Assembly (NCBI GenBank): GCA_050084515.1
Contig: CM114271.1
Span: forward strand, 25,110,001-25,174,000
DNA length: 64,000 bases
Direction of reading: 5' to 3'
Source: Blasia pusilla
Taxonomy: Eukaryota
This document shows, in pieces, positions 31,201 through 64,000 of this stretch; within the stretch, counting starts at the first letter, position 1, and each line of letters opens with the position of its first letter. The notes beneath the pieces are model-generated. The model saw only the letters and a list, made by a program, of their open reading frames with translations. It searched no databases and was not told the origin of the DNA. The position numbers were made by a program, and so were the translations under genes.

Positions 31201-31419
31201 CCATATACTAACCAAGAGGATGCAACTGGGGCTAGATGGCATGGCGAGGTTGATGAGGAGATGGTCCCACGTTGGCATGCATCAATGCATCCTTTTTATG
31301 CTGGTTAGGGGTGGATTCTAGTATAGAGGACCACATGACATCTTACTCTAGTCAGAGGGTAGATGGCCAGCCTTTAGATCCTAAGGTTGGAGATGGTGGT
31401 ACGCATCAGCGTGATATTC

Positions 31420-33475: not shown

Positions 33476-34542
33476 TCTTTGCATGATATGGATTACAAAT
33501 GGGCGACTAACGATGGGGCAACCTAGCACCCGGCCTTCTGATTCGTGCACCCAAGAAGGTGTATAGCATGTAGTAGATGTATAGGGCTACCTCGGAGTTA
33601 GAGGGACCTAACCACTAGTTAGGGGGGCGAGTTGTGGTACACTTGTATTTGTGGATGTTCTCGTCTATGTTATGTATGTATGTGAGTATGGTATGTCAAC
33701 GATGTATGTTGTATGACGATGTGGATTTGCACGACAGATGTCATGACCATATGGATTATGTGGTAGAGTATATTGTGCTAGTAGAGGCCATACCTTATGT
33801 AGAGCCTTAGTGTCTAGGTAGAGATGCACTTTCATACATAGGGTTGGGGGTTACTCAGTTGAGCGTGACTTTTCCAGTAGGGCCCGCTCTTAGGTTGGAG
33901 GATATAGTGTGGAGTGCACTCAAAGAACAGTTAGTTCTTTGAGTTGAGCCTGTTGCGTTGAAAGTTAGCCTTGGTAGTGAGTAGAGCTCTTGGCTATGGT
34001 GGTTCCTGCAAGCTTTGACCTGGATTCTCTCATCGTGGAGTGGGTTTGGCTCGATTGTATGTGATTCTATACGTGGTTTATAACAATAGGTCTTTAAGTT
34101 GTGGTACACTTATGTTTGTGGATGCTCTCGTCTATGTTATGTATGTATGTGAGTATGGTAGGTCAGCAATGTATGTTGTATGACGATGTGGATTCGCACG
34201 ACAGCTCTCAAGCTCTCTCTCTCTTGGAAGTATACCCCCTTCCCTCTCCCAAGCCCTCTCAACGGTAACCTATGCTCGTAGGTCACCTCCTTGGCTTTGG
34301 ACTTGTTGTAGCGGGTCAAGGCCCACTTCCCAAAGTGGAAAGTCAACTATCCCTAACATGGAAACTTGCCCAAAATAGTAATTTTCTTTGTATGGCTCCA
34401 AATGAGCCGAAACGAAGGGAAAACCTACTCTCTCAGGTTTTGCAGGGCCTCAACAGGTCATCCTCGACCTGTTGGGCATGTCCTCCACAACTTGAGAAGA
34501 CGCTCTGCTAGATCCCACTGATCTATCCTAATAGTCATGATA

Positions 34543-37500: not shown

Positions 37501-38130
37501 GGTAGGGTTAGATGGCTATTTGGAGTTAGAAGGACCTTAGCACCATCTAGGGGATTATTGGAGATATTTTGGCACTTCTCGTCTAGTTGTGTGGACTCCA
37601 TGAGTTAGCATGGGACCGTTTGTGTTTATATGTGCATTCGATGATATCGATGTATGTTATGTAGCTATGTGTATGCGCACGATAATTATCACGTATTTTA
37701 GGATATATCGATGAGATCTAGCAGAGCGCCTTTGGAGATATTGGAAGACACCCTGAGGAGGTCGTGGATGACCTACTGAGGGCACGTGTAACTTGAGAGA
37801 ACAAATTTCTCCTTCGTTTCGGCTTATTTGAAACCATATTGAGGAACTTACTATTTTGGCTAAGTTTCTATTTTTGTATAGTTGACTTTATAATTTGGGA
37901 AGTGGCCCTTCATCCACTACATCATGTCAAGAGCCAAGGAGGTGACCTAAGAGCATAGGTTACCGTGGAGAGAGCTTGGGAGAGTGCAGGGGATATACCT
38001 CAAAGAGAGAGATCTTGAGAGCCCATTCTCTCTTTGTTGAACCTCTTGGCAAGACGCGGCGGAGCTATGGTCCTTCTTGCCTTGTGTGTGTAACCTGAGC
38101 CTCTCATTAGGAGAGTAGGTTTGGTTTGAC

Positions 38131-38168
<38 letters not shown>

Positions 38169-38430
38169 CACAAAGAGAGAATGAGGTGAGGTGATTGAGA
38201 GGGCTATTATGGAGGAGGTTGCTAGTTTCTTGTTGTTGTGTAGGTTGGGTACCGTGTTCCCCGTTCAACGACTCTTGGGAGTGCTCATCGGAGCAAGAGC
38301 TGCTTGTTTATGTGTTATGTTTTGCAGATCTTTCGTGTGGAAGAGTGGCGCGCAGAAGCGCTGCCCAATTTTCATTAGAAATTGAGTATGGGGGCGGATT
38401 GCTCCATGCCAGTTCTCTCGGGAGCGCACC
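34543..38430 (+). mobile_element. Degenerate family-B Gypsy copy: RT-RNaseH-IN-PHD, then full B-NN-A LTR, PBS and start of a further leader
   Basis: CYIDDIVVF (~34940), PHD at ~37230-37375, PPT at ~37549, B 37558-37684, spacer AT, A from 37687, PBS-like ACAAAGAGAGAAT at 38170-38182. Many stops. Confidence 0.85.
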
Positions 38431-42749: not shown

Positions 42750-42935
42750 TTGCATGGAATTGTGGAAAGTTTGGAAGTGAAAATTAAGTCTTATGCGGAA
42801 GCCACAAAGGTTGCCCAAATTTCTTTCTTCCAAGAGCAAGAGATAGAAAAGGAAAACAAATTTGCACACAGGAAGAACGTGAGAATTTTAGGATTATCTA
42901 AAACAAAAAATGAAGAGGTGAAGAGTGTTTTCACC
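42750..42935 (+). pseudogene. Possible LINE ORF1-like fragment
   Basis: Charged coiled-coil-like stretch followed by RKNVRILGL, similar to the RRxNxRIxGL motif of L1-type ORF1. Short and weak. Confidence 0.3.
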
Positions 42936-44059
42936 TCATCCCAAATCATGCCTAGCCCTCCCTGACGAAAGGCATGGGATGCTGGAAAGCTCACCAACGT
43001 AGGTAAGGCTACCCTCAACTCCCCCACCCTATTCGCCATCACCGACGGTGGTCTATCATCCCGCGTCACCACTTGAGATTGACGCCCTGAGCCCAAAATA
43101 GCATCCACTGTGAGATGTGGTGGTCTCTCGACTTCATCGTATGCTCGAATCAGTACCTCTGATGGTATCAGGTTCGTCCACCACAGTCGTGGATGATGGG
43201 CGCGTGATCCAACTCTCACTACATCTAACAACACAACAAGTCCCAACCAAGACCTCACTTGATGCACACTCGTCATCACACGTGCACAAGTGTCTCCCAA
43301 CAACGGCATGTTCTAAAAAATGTATGCGGAGAACATGTATGACTCTCCTGCAAGTGTTGTACTACTCGCAGCATCTCCCAAAACATCACTGATCTCAGAT
43401 CCTGCAATCCAAACCCTCGGCCAACTGATGAATGACCCTGACATGGCCATCCAGCAATCACCAAATGAATGGTACCAACTCTATCCAGATCCTATGCCCC
43501 CACCAAAGAGATGTCGGCGGGTAGTGTATGTTGATATCCCCGTATTGCAGATACCGGAAATAACTCAGGATACCTCTGGACCAATCTCACTACGTGACGT
43601 AATGATTCTCGCCGCCCAGTCTCATCTCTCTCCACATAAAGGTATTGATGCACCTGTATGCCTGCCTACAATACCTCTGCCAATCCTGTGCTAATCACTC
43701 CAAAGAGATCTAACACCCTAACACCCTCCTTTGGACACTGCCACACAACGAGGGTGGTATCCAATGGGGTCAACGTCTCCACTCCAGAGGCCCGATCGCC
43801 ACTTGACTCTTGCTGCTCTGGGATAAAAGCATGACTCCATGCCTGCCTAAGGAGGTCGTCGGCACTCCTCTGTGGCTCTCGTGTTGTACCCCATAATGGT
43901 GAAGAGGTCTCGCCAACATAAGAAGAGATACCCGCCATGGCCTGTCTCTCCGTGGGACTATCCACCATTGGGATATCCTTCGCTTGTGCATTCTCCTCCA
44001 ACAACTCTCATGGCCAGCTAACACTACCTATGAAAGCTGCCAACTTGGTCACAGACTCA
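42936..44059 (-). pseudogene. Fragment of an older DNMT-Gypsy copy (methyltransferase domain); continues at 63464-63560
   Basis: VLDLFGVISTG, VIAGWPCQGH, ENM, RAHHPRLWWTNL. The reading GWRSGDGWMSQL...RDE|SVTKLAAF joins across the 44060-63459 insertion. Confidence 0.85.
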
Positions 44060-44364
44060 TGTCGTGCGTATACACATTGCTACACAACATACATCCCTGT
44101 CACCGAACACACACACAAACACACATGATCCCATGCTAACTCATGGCATCCAAACAACGAGACAAGAAGTACCAAAATATCTCCAATCGTCCCCCTAGCT
44201 GGTGGTTAGGTCCCTCTAACTCCAGATAGCCATCTATCCCTACCTACAATGACATACATCTTTCGAACGCTAAGAGCAAGAAGGTCGGGTGCTCATGTGG
44301 CCCCATCGTTAGTCGCCTTCTTGTCATCCATGTCACAAATACAAGTCAGAATGTAAAACTACCT

Positions 44365-47300
44365 ACTCTATGTACATCTGGGACACATCCATCATCCCTG
44401 AGGAACCCTAGTGAGAGGTGGCATCAAACATGTCATATGCCATCCTCTCGAACATCCATCATAGACTAGCATAGTGGCTGCACCACGGGCGGAACCACAC
44501 AACATACACCGCAAGCCTGCAGGAACTATTGCTAAGCTCAAATCAACTATAACGTCAATGTTTGGAAGATGACATGGTGCACAGTTATGCACATGGTCCT
44601 TCCAAACCATACCATCGCGTCCCTCCAGTAAGAGAACATCGGATGGCAAAACCTCACGCACTCTCAAGATGGTGCGCCCTGAAGTCACATCCAACATCGT
44701 GGGTGTCGTCTGCTGCAAGTAGACATAGTCTCCCTGATGAAACCTCTAGATAGTAGCTCGATAACTACCTCCCCGAATAGTCACATACCTCAACGTATCC
44801 CGATGGTGCGTAATTGCCAAGTTCTCAAATGTCATGGGCATCACTCTCCGAGAAAACTCAACCCTCTCAGAACATGCTTGCATCCATACATCAGGTTCAT
44901 CAAGGTTCAACACCTCACCAGTATCTCAACGAATGGCCGTTGGTAAATCTGGTTCTCGGCCATAAAGCAACAAGTATGGTGTGAAAGACGCTAAGGATGC
45001 TTGCTTGCTGAATCTGTATCCCATCGCCAACCACGGAAACTAAAGGTCCCAGTCTCCTAGGTGACCTCTCTGCAAGCCATACTTGTGTAGTCCTCTCTTC
45101 ACTGTCTACACAACCCGCTCCGCTAGTCCATCCGCCTCAGGATGATCTCAAGAAGTAGTGCGATGGTTGATCAGTGCCTGATCACACAAGGCCTGAAACT
45201 CCCCACGGAACTTTGTACCCTGGTCTGTCAACACCTCAGCTTGCACGCCGTAATGACTCAACACTCGATCTATGGAGGCATATGCAACTCCCTTACTCGC
45301 TTTGTCAGGCAATGCAACCAACTCTATCCACTTTGAGAAGTGCTCGACCATCACCAACACATAACGACTATGGCGCTCCGTCAAAGGCAAAGGTCCTGCA
45401 AAATCCAAACTCCATCTATAACCTAAACCCATGATCGAAAGTGGATGCAACTGTGGAGTTGGTGCATTGAACAATGCTCAGACTCGATCACACACCATGC
45501 ATCTGGCAACAAACTGCTGAACGTCAGTCTGCATGCCTCGTCACCAATACTGAATCTGGAGCAAGTTGTACGTCCGCTTCACTCCAAAATGACCCAACTC
45601 CTCGTGGGCATGACGCACCAAATATGCTCTCTGCAAAGGATGAGGCACTACACGCACTCTACCATCCTCCCACACTCGCAACACATGTGTGCCCTCAAAC
45701 CGGAACCGTGTGGCTCGTTGTAGGATCCGATCCCACTCTCTAGAACCCATTGTGCTCGCGACGCTGCCACTACGCAGGTACTCCAAGACCACTCCATCGT
45801 CGTGAATGTCTTGGCCACCTATCGTCTCCTCACTGGCCTCTAGATCTAAGGACTCTCCATCAGACATCGCCATCGAAGTCTCCACAATCTGGCTCTCCAT
45901 AGCCAACAAGCCCAAATAGGCTGACGCATGCTATCGGGCACCAACTCCTCATCACTCTCACCATGCCAACGAGCTCCAGTCGCATCTCGCTGACTCGGGT
46001 ATGGGTTACGGCTCAAACCATGGCCATCCTGGTTGAGCATCCTAGGTCTATGCACCACCTGGAAGTCATACCCCTGCAACAAAAGAGCCCACTTCGCAAG
46101 CTTTCCCGTAAGCTAGTCGGACTCCATCAACCACTTAAATGGTTGATGATCAGTAATGATGGTAAAGGGATTGCCGAATAGATAACATCTTAAATGTGCG
46201 ACAGTCCACACTGCAGCCAAGCACTCATCCTCATACGAGCTATACTTCGCCTTTGCAGCGTTATTTGAGCGACTAGCGTAAGCCACCACAAAACTCTCTA
46301 CCATCATCATCATGTTGGGTGAGCACGGCTCCAAGCCCCAACAAGCTCCAATCGGTATACAACTGGAAAGGATGCCCCCTGATCCGTTTCCTCAATATGG
46401 GCGCGGACGTCAATATGTCCTTGAGCATCTGAAATGCTCTCTCTTGCTCATCCCCCCAGTGCCACTCCTGATCCACCTTGTTCATCAAAGTTAGCGGCTT
46501 TGCAATTGAACTGAAACCCTTGACGTACCGTCAATAGAAGTTTACCAATCCCATGAATGCACGAACTTGACTCACATCTGTAGGGCATGGAATGCATGAA
46601 ATAGCCTCTACCTTCGTCTGTTGCACACCAAGGCCCCCAGGGTATATTGTATGACCCAAGTACTCAATCTAGTCGTAAAAGAACTTGCACTTGCTTGGAT
46701 GTAGCTTCAGCCCATGTAACTGCAATCGTCAAAACACCTCCTCTAGATGTCGCTCATGCTCCTCAACTGTGGCGCTAAAGACTACGATGTCATCAATATA
46801 ACACCTAGCAAAATCCAGACCTGCCAAGATTCTACCCACGACCCTCTGAAACTCAGCCAGGGCGTTCTTTAACCTGAATGGGAAGAACCGCCATTGGTAC
46901 AAAAACTCCTTCTCGTGAGGATCGATGCCCCAAAATGCCATCTTTTTTCTGTCCTCCAATCTGAGAGGAAGCTGATGGTATTTGGCTCGCAAATCCAATG
47001 AATTGAAGACCTTTGCATACCCAATTGCATCAAAGATCTCCTCAGGGATGGGCATGGCATACCTATTGGCCTTTTTTTGTTGATTGATAGGTCGGTAATC
47101 TCCACACATTTGCCTATCCGTCCAGTTTCCATGCACATCCTTCTTGGCGGGCTTGACAGTGGCAGATGCATACTCTCCATGCAACATCTCCACTAGTCCT
47201 GCTCCAACCAAGTCTGCTCCTACTCTGAATCTGAGCCCTCTCCATATCACTGTACCTGTAGGGTTTTTGGAAGATCGGCGTGTCACTCGACAGCTCAATG
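44365..47300 (-). pseudogene. pol: RT, RNase H, integrase and PHD finger of the family-B element
   Basis: CYIDDIVVFS, LYTDWSLLGLGAVL, ITDHQPFKWL, HAHEELGHFG, WSLDFAGP, VLTDQG, CMLCGS..DGCSRGWHMTCL. Confidence 0.9.
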
Positions 47301-47749
47301 CGGATTCATGGACCCTTCAGTGTACCCAAATCATGCATACTAAATGCAAAATAGCTCTTATAACTCCTAAGGAACTGGTGCATCCAACGCCGCTCTCCTC
47401 CTGTCAACTCAGGGCCCATATCTGGCTCCCAAGTCTCCATCATGACTACGATACGTCTCTCCGGAACGGATGTCAGTGGTTGCTATGGTGCAACCTCGTC
47501 TCAAATAATAGAACTGCCATCTCCACATGCAGTACTCGAAACCACGCTCGATGCGGTGGCTATCATCTCTTGGCGTACCTGCAAAACATCCCAAGAAGTC
47601 CAAGGGTGTCTCTCCCAATCACCCTTGGTGTGTCGATCTCCTTGGGTCTCGCCCCCAACCAGTGCCTCAATCGTCTCGGTAGGCATGGGGCTCACCAACG
47701 CAACTTTTGTGATTTGTCGCATCCTCAAACGACGTTGCTAAGCTACTCC

Positions 47750-48710
47750 TAAGTTGAAAATCCATGTCAAGCAGTTCAGGTCCATCGCCTGACCCGAGAT
47801 ATAACGTCGTGATGCCTCTGATAGTGACGGTACTGCCGTCACTTGTGTGGGGAATCCCATCGCTCACTCTCGCTCATGGGCGTTGGGCTCCATCAGCCTT
47901 TGTACTTGATCATCCCAAACCAGGTACAGAGGTACAGAGGCCAGGTCTCGCCTCCTTGAATGCATAGGAAGCGAGAAAACTCACCAATATGGGAAGGGCG
48001 GCTCGTGGCATGCCAATCCTGTTGACCACAGTCAACGACAGTTGATCATCGTGCCTCAGTGCCTGTGATCGACGGTCCGGATCCAATATAGAATCCACCA
48101 ACAAATCGGAGGGATGCTCCACTCTCGCATAAGCCCTCCGTAATACCTCATGTGGTACCAAGTTGGTCCACCAAAGACGCGGGAAATATGCTCGTGAACC
48201 CACACTCGCTGCATCTAACAACACCGTCATGCCGATCCATGCACGCACCTGATGTGCACTCGTCACCACACGGGGCCTCGAATCGGCCAAAATTGGCACA
48301 TTCTCCAAAATGTATGGTGGAGATTGATGCTCCTATTAATGTCGCAAGATTTGCATCATCTCCCAAAAAAACTTGGACCGAGTGTCAGCTAACCCGCTAC
48401 CTCGTCCAACACTCGATTGGCCCTGACACAGCCAACCAGCAATGACCAAATCTATGGTCCGTACCCGCTCCAAGTCCTACGCCCCCAATAATGAAATATC
48501 CCTCGATAGGGAACTCTAGTAACCCTTAATGGCAAACGTTGACAACAAGTCGGGAAAATGGAGGCGTAACAGCGCCACATGGTGAAGTGAAGCACGCCTC
48601 GCAACATCATCAATCTCCACATACAAAAACTCTTGCACGCGCACTCCAGCGTGCAAAACAGCAGCTAACCCAGTGCCAATCCCTCCAAAGAGATCCAACA
48701 CCCGAATACC
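47750..48710 (-). pseudogene. DNMT3-like C5 methyltransferase domain of the family-B element
   Basis: LDLFGGIGTG, YVEID, DLVIAGWLCQG (PC mutated to LC, ~48421-48452), ENV, PRLWWTNL. Confidence 0.88.
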
Positions 48711-48859
48711 CTTCTCCTTCTCTGGGATGCATCACATAATCGTGGTGGTGTCCAAAGGGGTCATAGCAGCACTCCTGCCTACTTGGGGTTCCTCTGACCC
48801 GTCACATTGTGGTGCAAGCGTCTCGCTCCACGCGGTCTGCACATGCTCAATGGCTAAGC

Positions 48860-50697
48860 GTCAAAGCTCCTCCGTAGAGCCCCAAAGCGGCACCTCTCCT
48901 CCACAAACTGATGTAGCTACCATGACACTCGTCTCCATAGAAATGTCAAGAACGGGAGGATCCTCTACATGGACATGTCCCTCAATCAAATCACTAGGCC
49001 AAGTGATGGCACTACTAAATGTTGCTAAGGTCGCCATCTCTCTTGGCCGTTGCTCGATCACTGCACTTGTGAATCGAACGGGTAATGAGCTAAGACGCCT
49101 ATCACCTGATTGCCATCCTGGTCTGTGGGATGCTGACTCCTCCCAGTAATCCAGGGAAAACCCCATCGGGTATAACACTGGTCCACCAACCAAGACGTCG
49201 TAGGACTCTGCATCAGTCACTATCGCCTTGGCTCGCAACACGGACTCATTTGTAGGATATCCCGGGCGAATCCTCACCATGACCTCCTATCGGGTGATAT
49301 ACTATGTGGTACTTGCTCCATCCAAGGATTTATGTATCCAAAATGGACAACGCTCCACATCAGCTCTCGTCAAGCTCAATCCTCAGAATGACGCTTTCCC
49401 CAACATCAGGGGTTGCGCTCCTGAATCCAACAAGACGCGATGCGGACTAAAAGCTCTACCTCCATGACTCACCAACCGGAAGACCTCTCCTCGGTTATCG
49501 AGCAACACAACACCAGGAGAAACCATGGCACGCTCTATCGCGGGTCTAGCGGGCATCTCCACCATCCTAGCAGCCGCAACCTGCCATAAATATGACGTGG
49601 ACGGCCCCAGCATCCGCTCCAAGGGCAGGTCCATCACCTCTTCTGCAATCACCTCTGATGGTGATGCAGGAACTCCAACTCTACGCTCACATACCATAGC
49701 GGCCAACCAAAAAATCTTGGCGGGTGTACCTCCCAACGTCATAACATCGGAAGCAGAAAATAAAGGAGCGCGGTACACAACGGTGGCCGCCCCCAACAAC
49801 GTGCTTGACACATGCCCCTCTTGAGCATCAGCAATAGGAGTCGTCGCACTTGCTTCTCCCATCTCCCTCCGTGCTTGCACACCAACAACATCACCAACTC
49901 TTCAGGAGCTCTGATCAAGACCCATCGATGGGTTCCTCATCGCCTCAAACAACGTGAAAGACTGAGGAAGCCTAGTCTGTTTCTTGGCTTCCCCTTGCAG
50001 AGTTGGATCCTCCATTTGGGCAACCCCGCACATCCAACCAGGATCCTCCATGTCTCTGGCTGCTCCATATGATGTCAATGCCACCGATCCACATCAGGTA
50101 ACCTCAATGCCATAGCGGCAATCTACTCCTGTAGCTGTTGTATCTGAGCAGCCATCCCAGCCTCACGCCTGGCGTCTCCCTCAATGCGTCTAGGTGGTGG
50201 GACTCTACCTCCTCCACGGGAAGCTCCACCACCTTGTCGGGCAACTCTACCTCCTCATCCCCCAACGGGACCACCTGGTGCACGACCTCTAACCCCACCG
50301 GACCGGCTACTCGCTCTGGTGCCCTCTCTGGCCCTCGGTCCGGACGTAACTCAGGATGTAAACTGAAACACTTGGCGCGTGTATGACCATACCTCTGACA
50401 ATAGTCACACTGATAACCTCCTAGTGCAGCACCATCTCCTCCTCCATGTTGAGGCACGTCCATGACCATGACGAGTGCAATCGCGCTCATGATGGGCTCC
50501 ACCACATGACCACCAAGTAATAGTAGGCGAATGTTGCTCGCCCATATGAAGGCGCAGGTCTCTGTGGCACAGCCTCTTGGTATCCTCCCTGAGCTCGCGG
50601 TGCCACAGTCGACCTATCTTGGAGTCCATGTTGTTGCACAGGTGGTGCAGACAATTGTGACTACTCTCGCCCAAAACCCATGGTGGCTACGCTTTCC
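48860..50697 (-). pseudogene. Gag zinc knuckles and protease of the family-B element
   Basis: WSCGGAHHERDC, CDYCQRYGHTRAKC, VLLDSGAQPLMLG, YDVLVGG. Confidence 0.85.
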
Positions 50698-50865
50698 TCT
50701 GTGTCATGACCATACGGATTATGTCGTAGAGTATGGTGTGCTAGTAGAGGCCATTCCTTATGTAGGACCGTAGTGGCTTGGTAGAGATGCGGTTCCATAC
50801 ATAGGGTTGGGGGTTACTCACTTGGGGGTGACTTTCCCAGTAGGGCCCGCTCTTAGGTTGGAGGA

Positions 50866-51080
50866 TATAAGGTGGCTTGCCCTCAAAGAAACGATCAGTT
50901 CTTTGAGTTGAGCTGTTGCGTTGGGAGTTAGCCTTGGTAGTGAGTAGAGCTCTTGGCTATGGTGTTTCCCGCAAGCTTCGACCTAGATTCTCCCATCGTG
51001 GAGTGGGTTTGGCTCGATTTTATGTGATTGTAAACGTATTTTATGACATTAGGTCTTTCACGGATTTCACTCAAAGAACT
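50866..51080 (+). promoter_or_regulatory. TATA box, predicted transcription start and complementary self-priming PBS of family A
   Basis: TATAA at 50866. AGTTCTTTGAGT at 50897-50908 is the exact reverse complement of ACTCAAAGAACT at 51069-51080. Same arrangement at 23107-23118 and 23280-23291. Confidence 0.7.
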
Positions 51081-54000
51081 TGAGTAGATCGATGGTAGCT
51101 TCGATTGTAGATCAGTAGGATCTTGTTAGGGCTGATTGTGTACTCAGCCGTGGATGTTCGCGGCTTGTTGCCTATGTTGGAGGTGTGAATCAGGTGCGTG
51201 GTTGGTTGGGAAAGAAGCGCCTTCTTTGAGAGCTTTCCAACGCTGCTTGTAGATCGCGGATTTCGTCAAGGGAGTTGGAAGTTATCAAGCATTGAAGATT
51301 CTGGTCGTGTTCGACAGTTTTTCTGATGTGGAGAGCTTGGAGTGCGGAAGCTCTGTTGAAGTTCATCCATATCGGGTGAGAGGTTCCTATTGCTACTTGT
51401 ATTGTGATCTCATGTGAAGCTATCTGCTCGAGTGCGTGGAGCGTTGCGGATTTCTGCGTGCATGAAACTTGGCGGAAGCGCTGTCGAATTTGCGGTTCTA
51501 GAGGTGTATGGACAGCAAGTTTGTCTGATTTTTAGCTCGAAATACGGAGCTCGGTTGTAGCTGAGTTTTTGTGGGGAGATAGCTATGGTGGTCAATTGAA
51601 TTCTGATCGAAACACATTTGATTTCGGTCACGTATTTGTGAAGTAATTTTGATCGAAATTTCGCAGACTAGCTCAAGGTCTGGCTATGGTGGACAGCGGA
51701 TCGGAGGGGCTGGTTGGTTGGTGACTCGTTCATTGTTGGAGACGCCTATCCCGTTTGGGGCGCCCTGGTTGGACCTCTCTCCATAGCGAAGCATGGCGAA
51801 GCGTGGCGAACGGGGCATGTCTCGGCGTTTTGAGGCTTCAAGGCAACTCGTGGTAGCTCGGGGCGAGTGGGCGTGAGAGGCGGAGCAAGGAGCAAGGAGC
51901 AAGCAAGCAAGCTTGCTTGCTTGGGCGTGAGGCAATTTTTGCAGGATTTGGGATTTGAGTTTTGCATAAGCTGGTCACCCATCTTTGGGCTAATCGCTGG
52001 AGGGCGCTTAAGCTGCTGAGTTCTTAACTATGCGTGTGTCTGTTGTTGTAGCTCATTTGGTGTTGTTTGGAGATGTGTTAGGCGCTTTATGCATCTCAGG
52101 TTTTTGGTTGATGTACCTCTAGCGCATAGTACGGTGTAGCCTCTCCATGCAGGTGATATTTTCAGGTGCTTTGCGAGTTCGACTAGCACGTCATCGACCC
52201 CGGCGGAGTAGCTATTGCGTTAGAATTGTGTGGTGGGTTTTGTGGATTGAGGGCACCACATTTGGTGAATTGTGTTACCTTGATTTCCATTTGCGATTGG
52301 AGGTTGTCGTTGGACTTCTGTGTTTGGATCCCCTCCATCGTGCTTCTTCTTGCTTGGCGCCCATTGTTAGGGTTGGCTGATTTCGAGTAGTGTTACTCCT
52401 GTGTGCTACCGGTAGTAAGGCTGGAGGGATGACGAGTAGACTGTGGGAGACTTCTTGTGGTGATGACAAGTTAGATTGCCTACACCCATAGCTAGTAGAG
52501 CTAGAATAGTATAGCGACATCGACGTCACTTGGTTATTTGGTGGTGGTAATTTGGCGATGGCGCGGCATCGGCGTTGGTCATCACGGAGCTGTCGGGTGG
52601 TCTGGTTGGGGACCGTGGTGCGGACAGTGGTGGTTTCACACGGAGTGGATTTAGGTATTGGCTACCTTTTCCACGCCGGCGGTTGATGAAGAGGAGGGCG
52701 AGGGTGTTCCAAACACCGAGTCTTCTACGTTGTTATTGAGTGTTGCGGCTCCATTGATTTGGGACATGGGCCGGTGGATATGGGGCCATGAAGGGCCCAC
52801 GGCGATACTCGGGTGCGTGGGCACCATTGAATTGGAGGACTTCATGCAGGAGTTTGATCGTGGTGTGATATGCAGATGTTGCGGGCACGCCACGTTGTTT
52901 ACACCCTTCTTGGCTTGGAAGGGTTGTTTCAAACACTTGGAAGGACCACCCATGGATGATTACCATGAGTTTAGGAAAGACCATGTTCTTTGAGATTTAG
53001 GCGTGGAGACAATATTGGTCTCCAGGCTATGTGTCTATCACCCATGGTGGTATTGGTAGTCTTGCTCTTACTATGCCCGGCCGACCCGGCGTTGAGTGGT
53101 GCAGTGCGAGCCGGAGTGGGGGTACCGGTGGAGGTACTAGTGGAGGTACTAGTGCCCCACCATGGTTTAGCCCGATTCTGAGAGTTCTTCAAGAGGTTGA
53201 AGAAGAACTATCAAGGAGTGAAGACGGAGAAGTTGAGGAATCTTCAGGACTTTGAGCGAAAGGCGGTGAGAGTCTTCGTGAGGCAAACAGCGTATCACGG
53301 CGACGCTTGATTTCAATTACCAGGGTGTGGCGAGGATCAGGCGGTCGATTTTGGTATGGGATCTTGGGCAGAGATTTGCGCCGTAGGGTGCGTGATGCTA
53401 CTCTTATGAGTGATGATTCACCCACATTGACCCATGTGTTTGCTCTATTTGAGAAGATTGAGCTTAACATGGTGAAGGAGAGAGTGGTGACATCCGCATT
53501 GATGAGGGATACAACTACTACTTTCGTGTTTAGCGCCCACCTCACGTCTCGTAGTAGTGGTGGTGGTAGTAGTAGTGGGAGTCGTGGGGTACACGCGACC
53601 TCAGTCAAGTCCTAGAGGACATTTGTGCAGAGACCATTGCCTTCATTTTCTGCCCCACAGCAAGGGCGATCATGTTGGACATGTGGAGGTGATCATGTTA
53701 GGAAGTTTTGTCCCCAAGAGGATGGGAGGCGGACTTTGGAGGATGGGCCTCGATCGGCCCCAACTCGGTGTGATCATTGCGGGAGACTAGGTCATCCTGA
53801 GGCGTTGCTTTGATCTTCATCGAGTTGAGATCAGGGCGTGGCCGTGGTGGAGTAGCTCCGAGAGGCCGAGGTGGTAGAGGTGGTAGGGGTGGTAGAGGTG
53901 GACCGGTGGTTGGAGAGCCTACGGTGGCTACCCCTACCACTACGACAAGTCGCTATGGTGCTAGGATTGGCTTGATTGGAGCATAAGTTGGCTACTATGG

Positions 54001-55384
54001 TGGTATCCGGCATAGATCGGGTTTGGGAACAAGGGCTTCCACCTCTTATGGAGGGATGATCTCTCTTATATGGCGAAAGACGAGGTTGAGGCATCAGCTG
54101 CGATTATGAGAGGAGCCACTCGGCGTTAGAGCCACGTGGTGCTCTTGTGGAGTTGGACCCCAGAGGGATGAGGGGGAGGCGAGGCTAGGCTTCCCAGTCA
54201 TTCTTGTTGTGTGAGGTGCTTAGGACTCCATCCATGGTTCCTCGCAGCCTATTTAGCCGCAGTGGGGACCGAGGCATCTACATCGCGTGTAGTAGACACG
54301 GATGCGACATCAATGCGATGTGCGGATGGCAACCGGTGTTAGGATCCCCATTGTTTTTGGCCACGGAGGCGATGGCTTTAGGAGTTGACTTAGCTCTGTA
54401 TTTGATCAGCGACCACGTTGTGTGAGCGTGGGGTATTCTTGCTGCTACGTGTTGAGGTGGATGAGGGTGTTGCGGTGGAGCGACCCTCTATATCGGGAGT
54501 AGCATTGAGTACCGGTGCTATTTGGCGGCGGCGGCGAAGATGGATGCATTACCGGCCCGCGCCGACCATTGATCGTGAGAGGCTTACACCTGGTGTATGT
54601 ATGTTGGACAACCGGGTGGGATCTTCCGATTGGTGAGTCCTATAGGGCAGTGTATATACCGAGATAGAGTCTTGTTAGACTCGGTGCCCAACCTTTGATG
54701 TTGGGAAAGCGGCATGTATTGGTTTGGGTATTCGGAGGTCGAGCTTGAGCCTTGCCCATTCGATTCAAACATCACTTGGAGGAGCCAATGATAGGTCTCA
54801 ATTCATGACACGGGAGAAGTTTTTATGCAGTTGAGACAGATCATGCGATCGATAGCCCGGTTGGGAGTATCTGCGGTAGTCACATCGGCCGTAAAGTCGT
54901 ATGATGTACTAGTTGGAGGAGCGATTGTACCCGATGGGTTTTGGATGGATTCTTGGGTGAGACAGCGACTTACAGACCTGGTTGGCGGTCCGGGATGGGC
55001 GTATGAGCCAAGTTCTGTGAGATTTATTTCTTGGGCTCGACCGGGGGGTCATCCCCAACAGTGTTAGCATCGTGGCTGGTTTTAGTGGAGTAGTCACTTG
55101 GCTTGGAGACTTTTGGAGGGTAATGTTTTACGCTATGGATTCTCTGCATGAGGAGGTAGAGGAGGTCCCTATTTTTGCAGCAAAGTGGCATCCTCATCGT
55201 TGGATGTGCCACTTTGGAGTTAGCGGTGCACTACGGCGGGAGGCGTCGCCTAGTGCGAGGAGGCTTGGTGTGAGGTGTTATACCTCACGAGGAAGAGGAG
55301 GCCCCACGGCGGACTCCTACTTCAGTCGATTAGGTTATCCCCTTTGGATACTACACCCCTTGTATGGCAAATTATCCGCCGGAG

Positions 55385-56310
55385 GGCATTTGTGTGTTAG
55401 ATCTCTTTGGTGGGATTAGCTTGGTTTGGTTTGGCTGCAATGTTGCGGGCCGGTATTCTGTCTTGCGGAGATACGTGTATGTGGGGCGAGATGAGCGGCC
55501 CGAGAGAGTCTCATCCCGACATATTGGTCGATTGATGCGGAGATATCCTGAGTTGTTGTCGCCATCGGCTATTCGTGGGGTACCAACGTGCTTTACCATC
55601 ACACATTGCATTGTTGGCGCAGGATCTTGAGAGGGTTGGTCTGTGGATTTGGTGATTCTTTGGATGGCCATGTCGAAGTCATACACGTCTTTGGTCGTGG
55701 TGAGGATTACATGACCCTAGGTCTCGATTGTTTTGGGAGATATTACGGGTGTTACAACATCTTGAGTTCATCAAGCACGTGCTCTAGCTAACATTGGAGA
55801 ATGTTCCATTGTTAGGTGACACTCGGACCGGATGATGGCGAGTGTTCATGAGGTGCGGTCTTGGATTGGACCAGCGGTGTTGTTGGATGGCTTGAGTTGG
55901 CTCGCGTGCACATAAATCCACGCTTGTGGTGGACAAACTTGTTGCCTAGGGAGGTTCTACGTCGAGCATATGATGCAGTGCAGCGGGATCCTCGCCTCAC
56001 AGTGGATAGTATCTTGGATATTGGGCGACTTTCTCAAGTGGTGAGGGTTATTGATCGGTCACCCATGGCGGTGGTGAACCGTGTGGGCCGACCTAGGATG
56101 GCACTACCCACATTTGTGAGTTTTCCCGTCACATGCTACGGGGAAGGTGGTCCGGGGCTTGTATGGGATTCTCATGTCGGCGGTTGGTGGAGCCTAACGC
56201 TGATGAGAGAGAGCGTGCGATGGGATTTGCTCTTGGTGTGTGGCGGTTGCTTCTATTTTAGGCTTCGAGGCTTCATGTGAGTCAGGCCATGGACCTGAAT
56301 TGTTTGACTT
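55385..56310 (+). pseudogene. DNMT3-like C5 methyltransferase domain, family A copy 2
   Basis: GICVLDLFGGIS, GWPC (~55662), ENV (55797), PRLWWTNLLP, QAMDL. Confidence 0.88.
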
Positions 56311-56679
56311 GGATTTTGAGTCTTGGTATGGCGGCGGCGTCGACTTTGGACTATGTCTGTGGGTCTTCCACCCCTTGTAATGAGCTTGATGGCTACCGGG
56401 ATGGTAGCGGCATCGGTGGGGCGAGGAGAGAAGTATTTTGCATCCTTGGAGTAAATGGGATGTAATGGTGGGCATGTGGAGTTGGTTGCTCATCTTTGGT
56501 GGAGGAGTTATTTGCTCGGATGATGGTGTAGCTAAGGGTGTACCATCTTGTGAGGGGGTTGCGTAGCGACCAATGGCATCGTCCTCTCCCTCTAGTGTGC
56601 CAATGGAGGAGACTTGAGAGCCATTACTTGGGCCCAAGCTTACGGGGGGAGGTGAGAAGCGGCGCTTGACACAATTCCT

Positions 56680-59600
56680 ACGTGCTTATAGGAGTTGTTT
56701 TGCCTTTAGCATGAAGGAGTTGGGTTCTTTGGTTGGACCCGGTATCACGGATTGATTTGGCTAGTGATCGCCAATCTTCCGTCGTCCCTACCGATATAGT
56801 GATATGGAGAAGGACCTCATTGAGTAGGGCGTTGGACCTTTTGGAGCCTGGATTAGTGGAGTTGTCGCATGGAGAGTATGCATCACCCCTGTCATGCCGG
56901 CTAAAAGGATATGCATGGCAACTACGGATAGGCGGATGTGTGGAGATTACCGTCCTATCAATCGGCAAACCAAGGCGGATAGGTATGCCATGCCTACACT
57001 GAGAGATCTTTGATGTGGTGGGACAGGCAAAGATTTTCAGTACTTTGGATCTTGAGCGAGATACCATCAATTGCCGATTCGGGAGAGTGACAAGGCCAAG
57101 ACAAAGACATTTTGAGGTGTCAACTCTCATGGCAAGGATTGTTTGTACCGGTGGAAATTCTTACCCTTTGGGTTGAAGAATGCACTGCCGAGTTTCAAAG
57201 AGTGATGGATAGGATCCTAGTAGGGTTGGATTTTGTTCGGTGTTACATTGATGATATCTTGGTGTTGATAACACGGTGGAGGAGCATCGGATACATTTGA
57301 AGATGGTGTTTGAGCGGTTGAAAGCTCATGGTCTACGTTTGCATCCAGGAAAGTGTAAGTTCTTCCATGAGGATGTTGAGTACTTGGGTCATGTGATCTA
57401 TCCAGGTGGTTTGGGAGTTCAGCAAGCAAAGGTGGAGGCTATTGCACTTATTCGGCGTCCGGTAGATGTGAGTAGAGTTCAAGCATTCATGGGATTGGCG
57501 AACTACTATCGGAGGTATGTGAAGGGATTTAGTGCTATGGCAAAGCCTTTGAACCAATTGCTGAAATCAGATCAAGAGTGGCACTAGGGAGATGATCAGG
57601 AGAGAGCTTTTGTGGAGCTTAAGGCCCAGTTGTGGCGGCGCCTATCTTGAGGAGACCTATCAGAGGGCGCCCATTTCAGTTACACACTCATTGGAGTAGG
57701 TTCGGACTTGGAGCGGTGTTGACACAACATGATGATGAGCACATGGAGTTTGTGGTGGCCTATGGAAGTCGTTCGAATAATGCAGTGGAGTCGCGCTATA
57801 ATTCATATGAGGGAGAGTGCTTGGCAGTAGTGTGGGATGTGGCACACTTTAGGTGTTACTTGTTTGGCACACAGTTTACCCTTGTTACTGATCACCAGCC
57901 GCTCAAGTGGTTGATGGAGTCGGACAAGTTTACAGGGAAGCTTGCACGGTGGGCTCTTATCTTACAGAGTATGACTTCCAGGTGGTACATAGACACTGGA
58001 GTTGCCAACCTTGATGATGGGTTGAGTAGGAACCCATATACTAGCCAAGAGGATACAAGCGGGGCTAGATGGCATGGCGAGGTTGATGAGGAGATGGTGC
58101 CATGTTGGCATGCATCCGTCTTTTTATGTTGGTTAGGGGTGGACTCTAGTATGGAGGACCACATGATATCTTACTCTAATCAGAGGGTAGATGGCCAGCC
58201 TTCAAATCCTAAGGTTGGAGATGGTGGTACGGATCAGCGTGATATTCATGATGATGCGTTGGTGTTGGAGTTCCTACGGACCAGTAGGGTGCAGGGCATA
58301 GTGAGTGCCAGGAGGCGAGACCGTGTTCTTCAACGTGCTAAGAGGTATCGATTGGAGGGAACACATATTCTCCGCATGTGGGAGGATGGTAGAAACAGTA
58401 GTGCCACATTTGGCTCGAGAGAGGCGCATTGTGCGACATGCCCATGAGGAGTTGGGACATTTTGGGGTAAAGCGTCGTATAACTTACTCCTTGGCGATAT
58501 TGGTGGCGTGGCATGCATACTCAGTGCAGCGATTGGTGTCACGTTGTATGGTTTGTGACCGGGTGAGGGCATCATTTAATGCCCCTACACCACAATTACA
58601 TCCCTTGCCTATTATGGGGTTGGGTTATCGTTGGAGTGTGGACTTTGCGGGACCGTTACCGTTGGTATGCGACATCATCGATATGTGTTGGTGATGGTGG
58701 AGCACTTCTCCAAGTGGATTGAGTTTGTGGCATTACGGACAAGGCAAGTGAGGAACGGCGTATGCATTTCTGGATAGAGTGCTTAGTCATTTTGGTGCAC
58801 CGGTGAAGTCTTGACCGACCGAGTGCGGAGTTTGGGTGAGTTTTCAGGTCTTGTGTGACAAGGCGTTGATTGATCATCGGACCACATCTCGAGATCATCA
58901 GAGGCGGATGGTTTGGGTGGCGTGTGGTTCATACGGTGAAGAGGGCATTGCGCAAGTATGGCCTCTGAAGGGGCATCTTGGAGGCTAGGATATTCGGTTG
59001 CCATGGTTAGCCATGGGGTATAGGTTCGATCGCCAAGCATCCTTGGCTTCCTTCTCACCTTATTTTTTCATTATCGGCCGAGATCGGACTTGCCAAAGAA
59101 GCAATTGCGTCGGGAGTCTAGTGAGGTGGTGAACCTTGATGACCGAGAGATGTGGATGAGGGTGTGTTCTCGGCGGGCGGAGCTCTTTCGGAGAGTTATG
59201 CCAACATCCTTTGAGAATCTTGCCATTGCTCAACACAGGGGATACGTTGCGGTATGCAACCATTCGGGAGTGGAGGTTATCGACCATCGATTAGTAGGTT
59301 CCATGTGGGGACTATGTCTATTTGCAGCAGATTGCCCGACAACGTTGGATGTGACGGCAGCCGTACTATTTTTCTGAGTCGCGAGGTGTTAGCTACGGAG
59401 TTCTCATGTTGGAGGGTCGTGATGGAGTTGTTTGGAAGGACCATGTGCGTAATTGTGCGCCATGTCATCTTCCAAATGTGGATGGTATCTTGTTGACCCA
59501 AGCTTAGCCATGATACGTGCTAGCTTGTGGTGCATGTTGTGTGGTGGGTCTTGTACTGTAACGCGGCCCGTATGTTGGTGTGTGATCGGTGTTCTAGGGG

Positions 59601-59690
59601 TTGGTACATGATGTGTTTGACTCCACGTTTGGATGTTGTTCCTACTGAAAGGTGGGTTTGTCCTCGATGTACTTAGGAGAGGTAGATGAC
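56680..59690 (+). pseudogene. pol: RT, RNase H, integrase (HHCC + DDE) and PHD finger, family A copy 2
   Basis: CYIDDILV, VTDHQPLKWL, HAHEELGHFG...CMVCDR, WSVDFAGP, PHD at ~59530-59672. Confidence 0.9.
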
Positions 59691-60430
59691 TTAATCTTTG
59701 CATGATATGGATTACAGATGTGCGACTAATGATGGGGCAACCTAGCACCCGGCCTTCTCATTCGGGCATCCAAGAAGGTGTATAGCATGTAGTAGATGTA
59801 TAGGGCTACCAGGAGTTAGAGGACCTAACACTTGATTAGGGGGCGAGTTGTGGTACACTTGTGTTTGTGGATACTCTCGTCTATGTTATGTATGTATGTG
59901 AATATGGTATGTCAGCGATGTATGTTGTATGACGATGTGGATTCGCACGACAACTGTCATGACCATACGGATTATGTCGTAGAATATGGTGTGCTAGTAG
60001 AGGCCATTCCTTATGTAGGACCGTAGTGGCTTGGTAGAGATGCGGTTCCATACATAGGGTTGGGGGTTACTCACTTGGGGGTGACTTTCCCAATAGGGCC
60101 CGCTCTTAGGTTGGAGGATATAAGGTGGCTTGCCCTCAAAGAACGATCAGTTCTTTGAGTTGAGCTATGCGTTGGGAGTTAGCCTTGGTAGTGAGTAGAG
60201 CTCTTGGCTATGGTGTTTCCCGCAAGCTTCGACCTAGATTCTCCCATCGTGGAGTGGGTTTGGCTCGATTGTATGTGATTGTAAACGTGTTTTATGACAG
60301 TAGGTCTTTCACGGATTTCAGTTGTGGTACACTTGCGTTTGTGGATACTCTCGTCTATGTTATGTACGTATGTGAGTATGGTATGTCAGCGATGTATGTT
60401 GTATGACGATGTGGATTCGCACGACATCCG

Positions 60431-61340
60431 CCATGTTGTGCTCAATGTTCTTGACGATCCTAAAAACATCTCTCCAAGTAGGGGAGGTGGTCATAAAAAG
60501 CATCCCATTCCGCACCCCTGTCCGCAGGGTCTGGTCCAACATCATGTACCATGACTAGATAGCCTAAGCCTGCGTCACTCCTTGAGTGATGTTGGTCAAC
60601 CGGCGCAAGCAAGTGTAAGTAAGCCTCACGCAAACTCTCACCCGGGCGCCTCTGGAAGTTGTGGATGCTCCGCAACTTTTCCGTCCATATCCCGTGGTAG
60701 CTCGCTCTCAACTCAGCAAAGAACTCAACCACAGGGTTGAACGTGGGACCAACCCGACTAGACGGTGCAATTGCTCCAGTGCGAGTGACCTCTCCTAAAA
60801 TGTCACTAGTGGAAGAGGAAGTAGCCTCTCCTGACTCCTCCTCCTCCTCTTCATCTGGGAACGGCTCCATCCATGACACATAATGTGGGTCATAGTAGAG
60901 CCTCCACGCCTAGATCTCACGTGCACATCTCTGAGAGAGCTCATGGTAATCGTCCATGGGCGCCTCCTCTAAATGCTGGAACATACCGTTCCATGATGTA
61001 AACGGGTTGGACTCTCTAGAGTTCCAAGCCCGTTGTGAGTCACACCAACTCCTAAACTCCCCAATGAAGTCGTATAGCTCTATAGTGCCTACAACACCCG
61101 AAAATCTACACGGTCCTCTATCCCGGTCGTCCATCTCGTACGCCCAATTGGTAGGACCACTCAATATGTACGATGGATCACTAACACACTCCTCTATACG
61201 CTCACTCTCATCTGAAGACGACACAGAAGGAGATCGAGGTGGTCTCTTACGTGGAGACCCTTGAGCTACTCTTAAGTCCACTACCTCGCCTCTCAAAATC
61301 TTGAAAAGACGCCGTGATGGCCCTTGTGCCCCTCTCACAC
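60431..61340 (-). pseudogene. gag: N-terminal Gag of the family-B element
   Basis: GTIELYDFIGEFRSWCD...PMDDYHE and FNPVVEFF...TEKLRS...GESLREAY, homologous to ORF 24917-25831. Confidence 0.85.
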
Positions 61341-62947
61341 GATCACTCTCAATCTCGTGAGTAATCCCTCAATCACTCAAACTAAACATGCGACACTAAA
61401 TCTACACTCTCTCACTGAGACGTGTGTTGTGCAGCAACAAGCAGCGTGGTGCGGCAAATCAACATATCTATCGTCTCATCGACAAACCATCCTCAACTTT
61501 GGACATCTCACACAGATCTCTATCCCCTAAACCCATACATCATCAACACGAAACCCAATATTCCAAATAACTTCCCAATATCCGGAAATCCCTCACACGT
61601 GCAAGGTAAGAGACAAGAATGGGTAACATGACAATAATGTCGATATCGCTCCTTGGAAACTGCAAATCTTGACCGTAACTCGATCATGAAGATAACTCCT
61701 CCAATCAGCAAGTCGTACTCCTCTCGTACCAACGCTGCTCAAACCTCCTAATTGTGTGGTGCGGCTTTAGCGGTCCAGTGCGGCATAGGCAGCACGGAAC
61801 GGCTACAAATGGCACGGCACTCGGGAATGGGGTGCGGCACTCGGCGGCATACCCTCCTCGATCAGCAATTCACACGCTCTACTCCTTAGTGAAGGAGCGG
61901 CTCCGCGATCAAGATGGTGCGGTGCGGCCACGAGCGGCAAGGCACGGCAATCGGCGACGCGTTGTGGCTACGGGCGTCATGACACAGTACTCAATCGTCA
62001 TCGAGCGGCTACCAATCACAACATAGCAGCATTAAATGAAAACTCAAACACCATAACCCGGGGTCACATGCCATCATTGGTTAATGACGAAACAACGATG
62101 GCCAAACCAAAGTACGTGGTGGCGGCGCAAGTCAAAGAATCAACGGTGGTCGTGGAAGACCCTCCACTCCATAATGGCGGCAATGGCAACCAAAGGGTGG
62201 ACAACAGACGAACGCGGCTCGGAGCAGCGCTAGGCGGCGGCCGACGGTGGACGGTGGACCGTTGATGGGGACGGCCGACCGTTGACGGTTATGGTTGACC
62301 GTTGACCATTAACGGTTAACCTTTGACGGTTATGGTTGACCATTGACTATTGACGGCAGACCGATGATGGTGACTATGACGGAGACGGCCGCCGCCGGCG
62401 CGACGGCTGGTTTAGGGTTTGAACAATTTAACCCTAAAAATCACCTAGCAATGGCAATTTTGCAAGATTGACCATAACTTTTATTTTGCAACTCCAAATT
62501 GCACACCGTTTAGCGCACAGTGTGCACAACTTCACGATCTACAAGAGCGTCAAAAAATATTTGGAATCAAACATTCCAATAAAAATTGACGAGGACTGTC
62601 GTAAAGCCAAATGTCTTTTTCTCCTACACATAACTCGATAGCTCTTCCGCGCTGATTTCTCCCAAAAAAAATGTAAAATATGTGAGAACACAAATCAGCA
62701 AGCTACATGGTGCTTCGAGAGCACCAGTATGGGGCGACTTGGCCCCATACTCAATCCCTATCAAAAATTGCACAACGCTTCCGCGTGCCACTCTTCCACA
62801 CGAAAAATGGGCAAATGAAATGTCACAAGTAAGCGGCTCTTGCTCTGGTGAGCACTCCCATGAACCGCTAAACGGGGAATATGATCCCCAACCTGCAAAA
62901 CCAGCGAGCGACCAACGAGCTCCCCCATGAAGCTCTCTCACTCATTC

Positions 62948-63150
62948 ATTCTCTCTTTGTAAAATAAGATCAAATCTCTCTCACAACTCTATAGTTTTCA
63001 CGTGTGTCTCTCAATGTCAAACCAAACCCACTTTCCTAATGAGAAGCTTGGGTTACACACACAAGGCAAGCAAGACCATAGCTCCGTCGCCTCATGTCAA
63101 GAGGTTCAACAAAGAGAGAATAAGCTCTCAAAGTCTCTCCTTGAGATATA
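62948..63150 (-). promoter_or_regulatory. TATA box, predicted transcription start and self-priming PBS of family B
   Basis: Minus strand: TATA at 63150, ATTCTCTCTTTGT at 63121-63109, complementary ACAAAGAGAGAAT at 62960-62948. Confidence 0.68.
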
Positions 63151-64000
63151 CCCCTACCCTCTCCCAAGCTCTTTCCATGGTAACCTATGCTCCCAAGTCG
63201 CCTCCTAAGCTCTTGACCTGATGTAGGAGGTTAAAGGCCACTTAACAAAAATAGAAAATCGATCATATATTCAAAATGATATTCACCTAAAATAGTAAGT
63301 TTCTCAATATGACTCCAAATGAACCGAAACGAAAGAAAAACATGTTCTCTCAGATTTCCCGCGGCCTCAATAGGTCATCCTCCACCTATTGAATCTATCT
63401 TCCACTATTCACAAAGGTGCTCTACTAGATCTCACCAATCTATCCTAAAAAACGTGACACTCATCTCGTGATCGACCACTTCGTCCCGCAAATTGCACGG
63501 ATAACTGGCTCATCCAACCGTCACCTGACCGCCACCCTTGCCCATAAGCAAGCTGTCTCCTCTCAAAAATCAAGGATGAATGATAGGGATATCCTTCGTA
63601 CTTCTAATAAAATCTTAGGGAAAGGTGGCTATGAGTGTTTCTTTCCCTATGCATAGAGGGGACCTTGGCACTCAACATCCAGTAGTAACCACCAACAATT
63701 TTGACACCAAATGTTCACAACTTGACTCCAATTTTAACACTTTCCTCAAACCTAATCCGACAGCTCCGCAAGGATTACGAAGTCGACCGTCTTCTTTCCC
63801 AAACGGGAATTCAATTTTCACTATTTCCATAGCTTTTATGTAGAGACAGTCTTCCAACAACGCTTGTTTTATTGGAATGCTTGTAAAGGAATCAGAAATC
63901 CCGTTTGCACCTCAAATACCCTTCTTTCAAGTTTCGTTCTTTCCAAATAATAACCGCCCGACTGTCGGAGCGTACTTGTATCATTCAAAACCACTTAGAA

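What the first reader, a model, noticed from the sequence alone, without database searches (positions are those of the whole stretch)
44060..63459. A complete Gypsy element with a perfect TSD but no repeated LTR (A-internal-B)
The termini and CTCA TSD are confirmed by the interrupted host reading frame rejoining. The element starts with the A half of the LTR and ends with the B half directly after the PPT. This is the predicted product of integrating a 1-LTR circle at the internal att site. Post-insertion recombination between B1 and B2 would give the same result. Such copies would be missed by LTR-pair-based annotation tools.
Basis: partly seen in the sequence, partly recalled or inferred. 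Interest (0 to 1): 0.78.

Follow-up and report, generated by a model that had tools for sequence, protein, structure and literature searches.

The report
Split-repeat Gypsy lacking its terminal repeat
This is an old, dead copy of a plant retrotransposon family that carries its own DNA methyltransferase and splits its end repeats (A...B-A-B); this copy and a sizeable minority of its relatives lack the last A-B block, most likely through recombination after insertion.

Summary
Observation confirmed. A minus-strand Gypsy element (63459-44060, 9.7 kb without a nested relative) starts with repeat A and ends with repeat B right after the PPT. It has a CTCA target duplication and no second A or B. 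The family norm is A-internal-B-A-B with a C5 methyltransferase in pol, as published for KnitGypsy-Dnmt3; this scan noted that layout in two other genomes. A..B copies are common: 9 of 65 and 4 of 29 sampled 3' ends in two families, eight more with perfect TSDs. A Tf1-like self-priming site and a copy-to-copy variable A|B joint indicate that reverse transcription makes B-A-internal-B-A, whose ends are joined and then cut at an internal palindrome. The PPT-side att site, the only one in a 1-LTR circle, is therefore avoided. I favour B1/B2 recombination (0.55) over primary integration (about 0.37 in all). Raw reads were inconclusive.

The parts
63460..63463 (.). 4-bp target site duplication CTCA, copy at the element's 5' end
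   Evidence: host contiguity in 9 of 9 uninterrupted copies
62961..63459 (-). Repeat A (499 bp), starting with TG: the downstream half of the reverse-transcription LTR; only one copy in this element
63145..63154 (-). TATA-like box inside A (function inferred)
63109..63121 (-). 13 nt about 30 nt below the TATA-like box, complementary to the site after A: presumed transcript 5' end and self-primer (inferred)
62948..62960 (-). Self-priming primer-binding site directly after A
   Evidence: at least 10 nt complementarity in 24 of 30 copies
60427..61125 (-). gag, 5' part (decayed), cut by the nested element
   Evidence: tblastn; weak Retrotrans_gag hit in a relative
50702..60426 (+). Nested relative (family F2) with the full layout: A1 50702-51068, B1 59846-59952, 2-nt spacer, A2 59955-60319, B2 60320-60426; TSD TCTG/TCCG; A1/A2 1.6%, B1/B2 2.8% divergent
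49965..50701 (-). gag 3' part with zinc knuckle (about 50365-50412)
49100..49577 (-). Aspartic protease region (DSG motif read from the translation; limits approximate)
47700..48710 (-). C5 cytosine methyltransferase domain, decayed (motifs I, VI and VIII recognisable; the catalytic PC motif reads LC; internal stops)
   Evidence: PF00145 E=7.6e-07; motifs; E=1.5e-10 in a relative
46291..47214 (-). Reverse transcriptase
45939..46298 (-). RNase H
44520..45846 (-). Integrase (H2C2 zinc finger and rve core with D, D and E residues present; internal stops)
44374..44508 (-). PHD finger at the end of integrase
   Evidence: PF00628
44188..44200 (-). Polypurine tract
44060..44187 (-). Repeat B (128 bp), ending in CA: the upstream half of the reverse-transcription LTR; only one copy
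44056..44059 (.). 4-bp target site duplication CTCA, copy at the element's 3' end
42935..44059 (-). Host: a related methyltransferase-bearing Gypsy, interrupted between protease and methyltransferase (its other side is 63460-63592)

Best explanation
Family mechanism (anatomy shown, steps inferred): the RNA starts inside A and self-primes at the site after A. Plus strands start at the PPT before B. Reverse transcription therefore gives B-A-internal-B-A. Its two ends are joined, the DDE integrase cuts the palindrome CACGACA-GC-TGTCA next to the joined left end, and A-internal-B-A-B is inserted with a 4-bp TSD. This copy: it was most likely inserted in that normal form and later lost A2-B2 by recombination or slippage between B1 and B2 (128 bp, about 500 bp apart), the counterpart of solo-LTR formation. 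It keeps the TSD and cannot replicate.
For: The norm is B followed by A: 54 of 65 F1 and 25 of 29 F2 3' ends. Integrase avoids the PPT-side att: 0 of 28 intact 5' ends have B upstream, and neither of the 2 genome-wide joint-B-att-A matches is ABA..B, against 445 PPT-B-att-A. That site is the only att in a 1-LTR circle. Independent use of both sites predicts 8-19 ABA..B matches (P(0) at most 3e-4). The sister product, solo A-B with TSD, occurs at a similar rate (4 of 30). B1 and B2 of one element share private variants and differ by 1.6-11% today, so they were near-identical at insertion. Internal deletions are common in these copies. A..B copies do not form one clade (4 rows, 4 changes, at least 2 forced).
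Against: There is no age trend: terminal branches of A..B copies do not differ from A..BAB (F1 p=0.22, F2 p=0.17, only 4 and 3 copies). The older 5'-selected set gave 3 of 10 against 9 of 63, not significant (p=0.35). A..B is about as frequent as solo A-B although B offers four times less homology. L174 is a TSD-flanked A-internal|B element without PPT, joined at the exact first base of B with at most 1 nt microhomology; this suggests that molecules with a single att site can integrate. The circular intermediate itself was not observed.
Confidence: 0.55

Rival explanations
1. One reading: a 1-LTR circle (internal-PPT-B-att-A) was cut at its single att site and integrated, giving A-internal-B directly.
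For: The family appears to use end-joined intermediates: the A|B joint varies (15 plain, 5 +A, 1 +AT, 1 +53 nt, 1 deleted, of 23) and the variants are unclustered on a tree. L174, L028 and L219 join non-standard sequence to the exact first base of B. The A..B rate is alike in two families (about 14%) and shows no age trend. That 1-LTR circles are a common by-product of reverse transcription is recalled, not tested.
Against: The att in the PPT-B context is not seen in use when a joint-side att is present. 1-LTR circles would need a large excess to make up for this. No very young A..B copy was found.
Confidence: 0.25
2. No circle: the linear B-A-internal-B-A cDNA is sometimes integrated using the A side of the left att and the B side of the right att, and the overhanging B and A flaps are trimmed by the host.
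For: It gives A..B with a perfect TSD and predicts no ABA..B, as observed. It needs only ordinary single-strand nicks after CA (inference).
Against: It needs an unexplained rule that A ends come only from the left site while B ends come from either. There is no direct sign of it in the sequences.
Confidence: 0.12
3. Assembly collapse of a real B-A-B end.
For: Raw reads from four runs did not show a read that clearly spans B at this locus (low depth, apparently other individuals).
Against: The same assembly resolves B-A-B in most copies, including the nested one 6-16 kb away. Eight other A..B copies have perfect TSDs. B pairs in the sampled related elements differ by 3-11%, which would hinder collapse.
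Confidence: 0.03
4. A..B is a replicating lineage of its own that needs no repeated ends.
For: A..B copies are numerous (of order 100-200 in F1). Two of them, this copy and L011, fall in one older clade.
Against: They are scattered among A..BAB copies in two families. That older clade also holds a B-then-A copy (L030). Without A2 there is no repeat for the first strand transfer (inference).
Confidence: 0.02

Closest known systems
KnitGypsy-Dnmt3 of Klebsormidium nitens (de Mendoza et al. 2018, PMC5890265; I read the abstract, passages, section 9 with the Fig. 4 legend, and searched 3 supplementary files; the main supplementary PDF was too large to read and the figure itself is not held)
   Same: Gypsy domains, a Dnmt3-related C5 methyltransferase inside pol, and DIRS-like repeats (the paper gives A-coding-B-A-B as the DIRS arrangement and says the K. 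nitens element has the same repeat structure).
   Different: Here the named relatives are land-plant proteins (Marchantia, Calypogeia, Sphagnum), with a PHD finger after integrase and about two thousand candidate places in the genome. The text I read gives no mechanism, TSD, priming site or A..B form. No Klebsormidium-labelled protein appeared in my two searches, so descent from that clade is untested.
Ngaro/PAT tyrosine-recombinase retrotransposons (passages of PMC8547959)
   Same: A1-ORFs-B1-A2-B2 layout; solo AB repeats attributed to recombination.
   Different: There is no tyrosine recombinase in any of 12 frames. This element has an rve DDE integrase, TG...CA ends and a 4-bp TSD.
Tf1/Sushi-type and moss Tcn1-clade chromoviruses (passages of PMC6317226)
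   Same: No tRNA primer site; self-priming predicted.
   Different: No chromodomain was found (PHD instead), the LTRs are permuted, and a methyltransferase is present. Clade placement was not tested.
Foamy virus integrase cutting 2-LTR circle junctions (abstract and outline of PMC1180852)
   Same: A DDE integrase reported to cut a palindrome in a circular cDNA to give processed ends.
   Different: There the palindrome is the LTR-LTR junction itself. Here it lies inside the LTR, 128 bp from the joint, so the provirus is permuted.

Membership tests
Ty3/Gypsy LTR retrotransposon | gag, protease, RT, RNase H, DDE integrase in Gypsy order | tested here: met
   (gag only by tblastn and a weak Pfam hit in a relative; protease by motif)
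Ty3/Gypsy LTR retrotransposon | TG...CA ends, short TSD, PPT | tested here: met
Ty3/Gypsy LTR retrotransposon | two full LTRs at the ends | tested here: not met
   no repeat in this copy; the family has split repeats
KnitGypsy-Dnmt3-like elements | C5 methyltransferase inside the pol region of a Gypsy | tested here: met
   PF00145 between protease and RT; the only named non-element hit was a fish protein with PWWP and DNA_methylase domains at E=1e-3
KnitGypsy-Dnmt3-like elements | A-coding-B-A-B repeats | tested here: met
   met by the family (54 of 65 and 25 of 29 3' ends); this copy lacks A2-B2
KnitGypsy-Dnmt3-like elements | phylogenetic grouping with the K. nitens elements | not tested
   no K. 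nitens sequence was returned
KnitGypsy-Dnmt3-like elements | active methyltransferase | not testable with these tools
   this copy's domain is decayed; the PC, EN and RxR motifs are present in Marchantia relatives
Ngaro/PAT (DIRS order) | tyrosine recombinase instead of DDE integrase | tested here: not met
Ngaro/PAT (DIRS order) | split direct repeats | tested here: met
   family level
Tf1/Tcn1 self-priming chromoviruses | primer site complementary to the presumed transcript 5' end | tested here: met
   13 nt here, at least 10 nt in 24 of 30 F1 copies, 12-13 nt in both F2 window copies; transcript start not mapped
Tf1/Tcn1 self-priming chromoviruses | chromodomain after integrase | tested here: not met
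   PHD found, no chromodomain hit

The most novel reading that the evidence does not exclude
A..B copies are primary insertions of single-att cDNA molecules (1-LTR circles, or linear cDNA cut at both internal sites). They would be a genomic record that a DDE retroviral-type integrase routinely integrates permuted or circular cDNA through an internal palindrome, in a methyltransferase-encoding Gypsy lineage that has multiplied in a land plant.
Probability: 0.35. Interest if true: 0.8.

Novelty: new variant of a known kind. Interest (0 to 1): 0.52.

Why it matters
For LTR elements and retroviruses, circles are usually treated as dead ends (recalled). This family appears to need an end-joined intermediate and an internal att site. 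The anatomy mapped here (self-priming site, PPT, variable joint, strictly one-sided att choice) turns a one-line remark in de Mendoza et al. 2018 into a testable mechanism. A..B copies, roughly 15-25% of 3' ends, have no repeat pair, so pair-based annotation and LTR dating would probably miss them (inference). The single copy is a dead derivative. The family, a methyltransferase-carrying Gypsy with about two thousand candidate places in a probable bryophyte genome, is the more valuable object.

Tried and rejected
Raw reads on 43500-45000 (4 runs of the 19 listed): inconclusive. Depth at the B|flank junction was 0.4-5, flank SNPs suggest other individuals, B was swamped by other copies, and the loose-end list was cut.

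Independent choice between the two att sites fitted the equal rates of A..B and solo A-B, but was rejected because it predicts 8-19 ABA..B matches and none was found.

The AC/GT/AT/GC spacer at B|A looked mechanistic. GC is commonest in F2 (13 of 26; GT 5, AC 4, other 4), and AC, GT and AT are what deamination of CAGCTG gives, so I read it as decay (inference).

That this copy is a chimera (B 97% but coding region 86% like the top hits) is unresolved, because the hits were selected on B likeness.

Age tests had little power. L046 was dropped as evidence for end joining because of a TTT microhomology. No tRNA genes lie in the window.

Literature: nine searches found no paper on A..B derivatives or on these elements in land plants. 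Subscription journals and Repbase are not covered. Passages of PMC11982613 and bioRxiv 10.1101/363937 were not relevant.

Full report
Observation. The window lies at G000:C1:25110001-25174000 in a 390-Mb genome of 26 contigs. The named protein relatives are from Marchantia, Calypogeia and Sphagnum, so a bryophyte is likely (inference). The element is on the minus strand, from TGTCACG at 63459 to CACGACA at 44060, with CTCA on both sides. The host is a related Gypsy. In 9 of 9 uninterrupted host copies the two flanks abut with a 3-5 (mostly 4) base overlap, which confirms termini and TSD. Of the 19,400 bases, 9,725 are a nested relative (F2, 50702-60426), leaving 9,671. No second A or B lies in the interior or the flanks.

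Coding content. The element holds gag, a zinc knuckle, protease, a C5 cytosine methyltransferase (PF00145), RT, RNase H, an rve integrase with D, D and E present, and a PHD finger. All are decayed by stops and frameshifts. No tyrosine recombinase or chromodomain was found in 12 frames. The methyltransferase-RT-RH-IN-PHD architecture also occurs in many unnamed metagenomic proteins.

Family norm. For F1 (this family), 30 of the 40 scored best matches to PPT+B were fetched, out of 2,078 candidates. Leaving out the query, 25 of 29 have B followed by A and 4 end at B. For a second query, 36 of 40 hits were new: 29 B-then-A (28 by script, L213 by eye), 5 clear B-only and 2 ambiguous. Pooled: 54, 9 and 2 of 65. 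For F2, 25 of 29 are B-then-A and 4 B-only. These samples are biased towards copies like the queries. In a set chosen by the 5' end, 10 of 28 fetched elements showed a PPT-B end within 10 kb: 7 B-then-A and 3 B-only. Genome-wide, 851 places have an exact PPT-B pattern and 599 of them continue into an exact A start. B-only is thus at most 30%, and about 15-25% after allowing for decay (my estimate, from 39 of 42 surviving junctions counted by eye). Perfect TSDs were seen for eight more A..B copies: L007x, L012x, L166, L168, L179, L180, L181 and L088. L178 has one mismatch, L011x two, and the 5' end of L021 was not resolved. Solo A-B units with TSD were 4 of 30 matches to the A|B joint. So A..B is a recurrent form, not a one-off.

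How the family replicates (inferred from anatomy). The 13-16 nt directly after A1 are complementary to a stretch inside A about 30 nt below a TATA-like box: 13 nt in this copy, at least 10 nt in 24 of 30 F1 copies, and 12-13 nt in both F2 window copies. Shuffled A reached 10 nt in 2 of 1000; that control was started 5 nt into the site. This is the self-priming pattern predicted for Tf1/Sushi and Tcn1 elements (passages of PMC6317226). With the primer site after A and the PPT before B, reverse transcription should give B-A-internal-B-A.

The A2|B2 joint is then right end against left end, and it behaves like a joint made anew each time. Of 23 F1 copies, 15 are plain, 5 keep one extra base, 1 two, 1 about 53 bases of what follows A1, and 1 has a deletion. 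The +A variant is unclustered on a tree (5 rows, 5 changes, shuffled mean 4.8). The tree is largely star-like, but one well-supported pair differs in joint type. L028, L174 and L219 join non-standard sequence to the exact first base of B with 0-1 nt microhomology, or with a 5-nt insert. B1 and B2 of one element share private variants. The B|A junction is a palindrome with a 2-nt centre, CA-GC-TG; a staggered cut there would give standard CA-3' ends (inference). A reported precedent for integrase cutting a palindrome in a circle is foamy virus (abstract of PMC1180852).

A 2-LTR circle has two att sites, and equal use would give ABA..B as often as A..BAB. None of 28 intact 5' ends (this copy included) has B upstream. 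Genome-wide, PPT-B-att-A matched 445 times and joint-B-att-A twice. One of the two is a solo A-B followed by a chance hexamer; the other is a B-A-B-A concatemer after internal sequence. The joint pattern sees only plain joints (14 of 23 known ones). Independent use of the two sites predicts 8-19 matches. So integrase is not seen to use the PPT-side att when it has a choice, and that is the only att of a 1-LTR circle. No very young copies were found: A1/A2 pairs differ by 1.4-7.8%, and A..B copies have terminal branches like the others (4 and 3 copies, low power).

Weighing. The one-sided att choice, the parallel solo A-B class and the frequent deletions favour loss of A2-B2 after insertion (0.55). 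Against it stand the lack of an age trend, the short B, and L174, which looks like an integrated single-att molecule, although a deletion ending by chance at B cannot be excluded. A 1-LTR circle (0.25) or a linear cDNA cut at both internal sites (0.12) remains possible. Collapse in the assembly is unlikely (0.03), but the reads did not test it.

Known relatives. De Mendoza et al. 2018 (PMC5890265; abstract, passages, section 9, three supplementary files searched; main supplement unreadable here and it may bear on TSDs or derivatives) describe KnitGypsy-Dnmt3 with Gypsy domains and DIRS-like repeats, with no mechanism in the text I read. Ngaro elements share the layout and have solo AB repeats, but use a tyrosine recombinase (passages of PMC8547959). 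Nine literature searches found nothing on A..B derivatives or land-plant members. This scan had noted the permuted layout in two other genomes. I saw those notes after my own analysis; they are unchecked and are not support.

Verdict. The feature is real. It is a dead, common derivative of a published but unexplained kind of element: a new variant of a known kind. Interest 0.52, carried mainly by the family's mechanism and its methyltransferase.

Noticed in passing
L219 (G000:C5:15638040-15641182), 855-2017: Internal sequence is joined through a 5-nt insert to the first base of B, without PPT, followed by B-A-B-A: a concatemer of the B-A unit.
   Followed up: partly
L126 (G000:C9:14047181-14050405), 507-1725: PPT-B-att-A is followed by the primer site and 333 nt of 5' internal sequence, then the A 3' part and B; possibly a remnant of a head-to-tail dimer.
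   Followed up: partly
L174 (G000:C2:16143420-16153419) and L046: TSD-flanked A-partial internal|B elements without PPT, joined at the exact first base of B.
   Followed up: partly
window 34558-38420 (+): An older F1 relative ends B-A, with A homology running about 740 nt into the 5' internal region and no clear second B.
   Followed up: no
window 22913-34203 (+): A second full A..B-A-B copy of F2 (A1/A2 7.8% divergent), inserted into the A repeat of a minus-strand F1 relative (22300-22913 and 34203-34549); its A|B joint is about 10 nt short.
   Followed up: partly
window 3269-4504 and 8367-9610: A pair of 1.2-kb direct repeats, 91% alike, around a coding region: probably an element with ordinary paired LTRs. 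An inverted relative lies at about 9800-13500.
   Followed up: no
window 1326-2916: Tandem array with a 351-bp period.
   Followed up: no
P0001-P0016, P0020, P0021: Many Marchantia 'hypothetical proteins', and Sphagnum and Calypogeia proteins, are relatives of these methyltransferase-bearing polyproteins. They may inflate counts of host methyltransferase genes.
   Followed up: partly
L068:960-2351, 2629-3378, 8607-9998; L067:2-1069: Long open frames unrelated to this family lie upstream of the B-only copy L021; not identified.
   Followed up: no
L133 and L134 (C2:59.60 and 59.64 Mb): Two copies share the same 3' flank 37 kb apart: a local duplication, both B-A-B.
   Followed up: no
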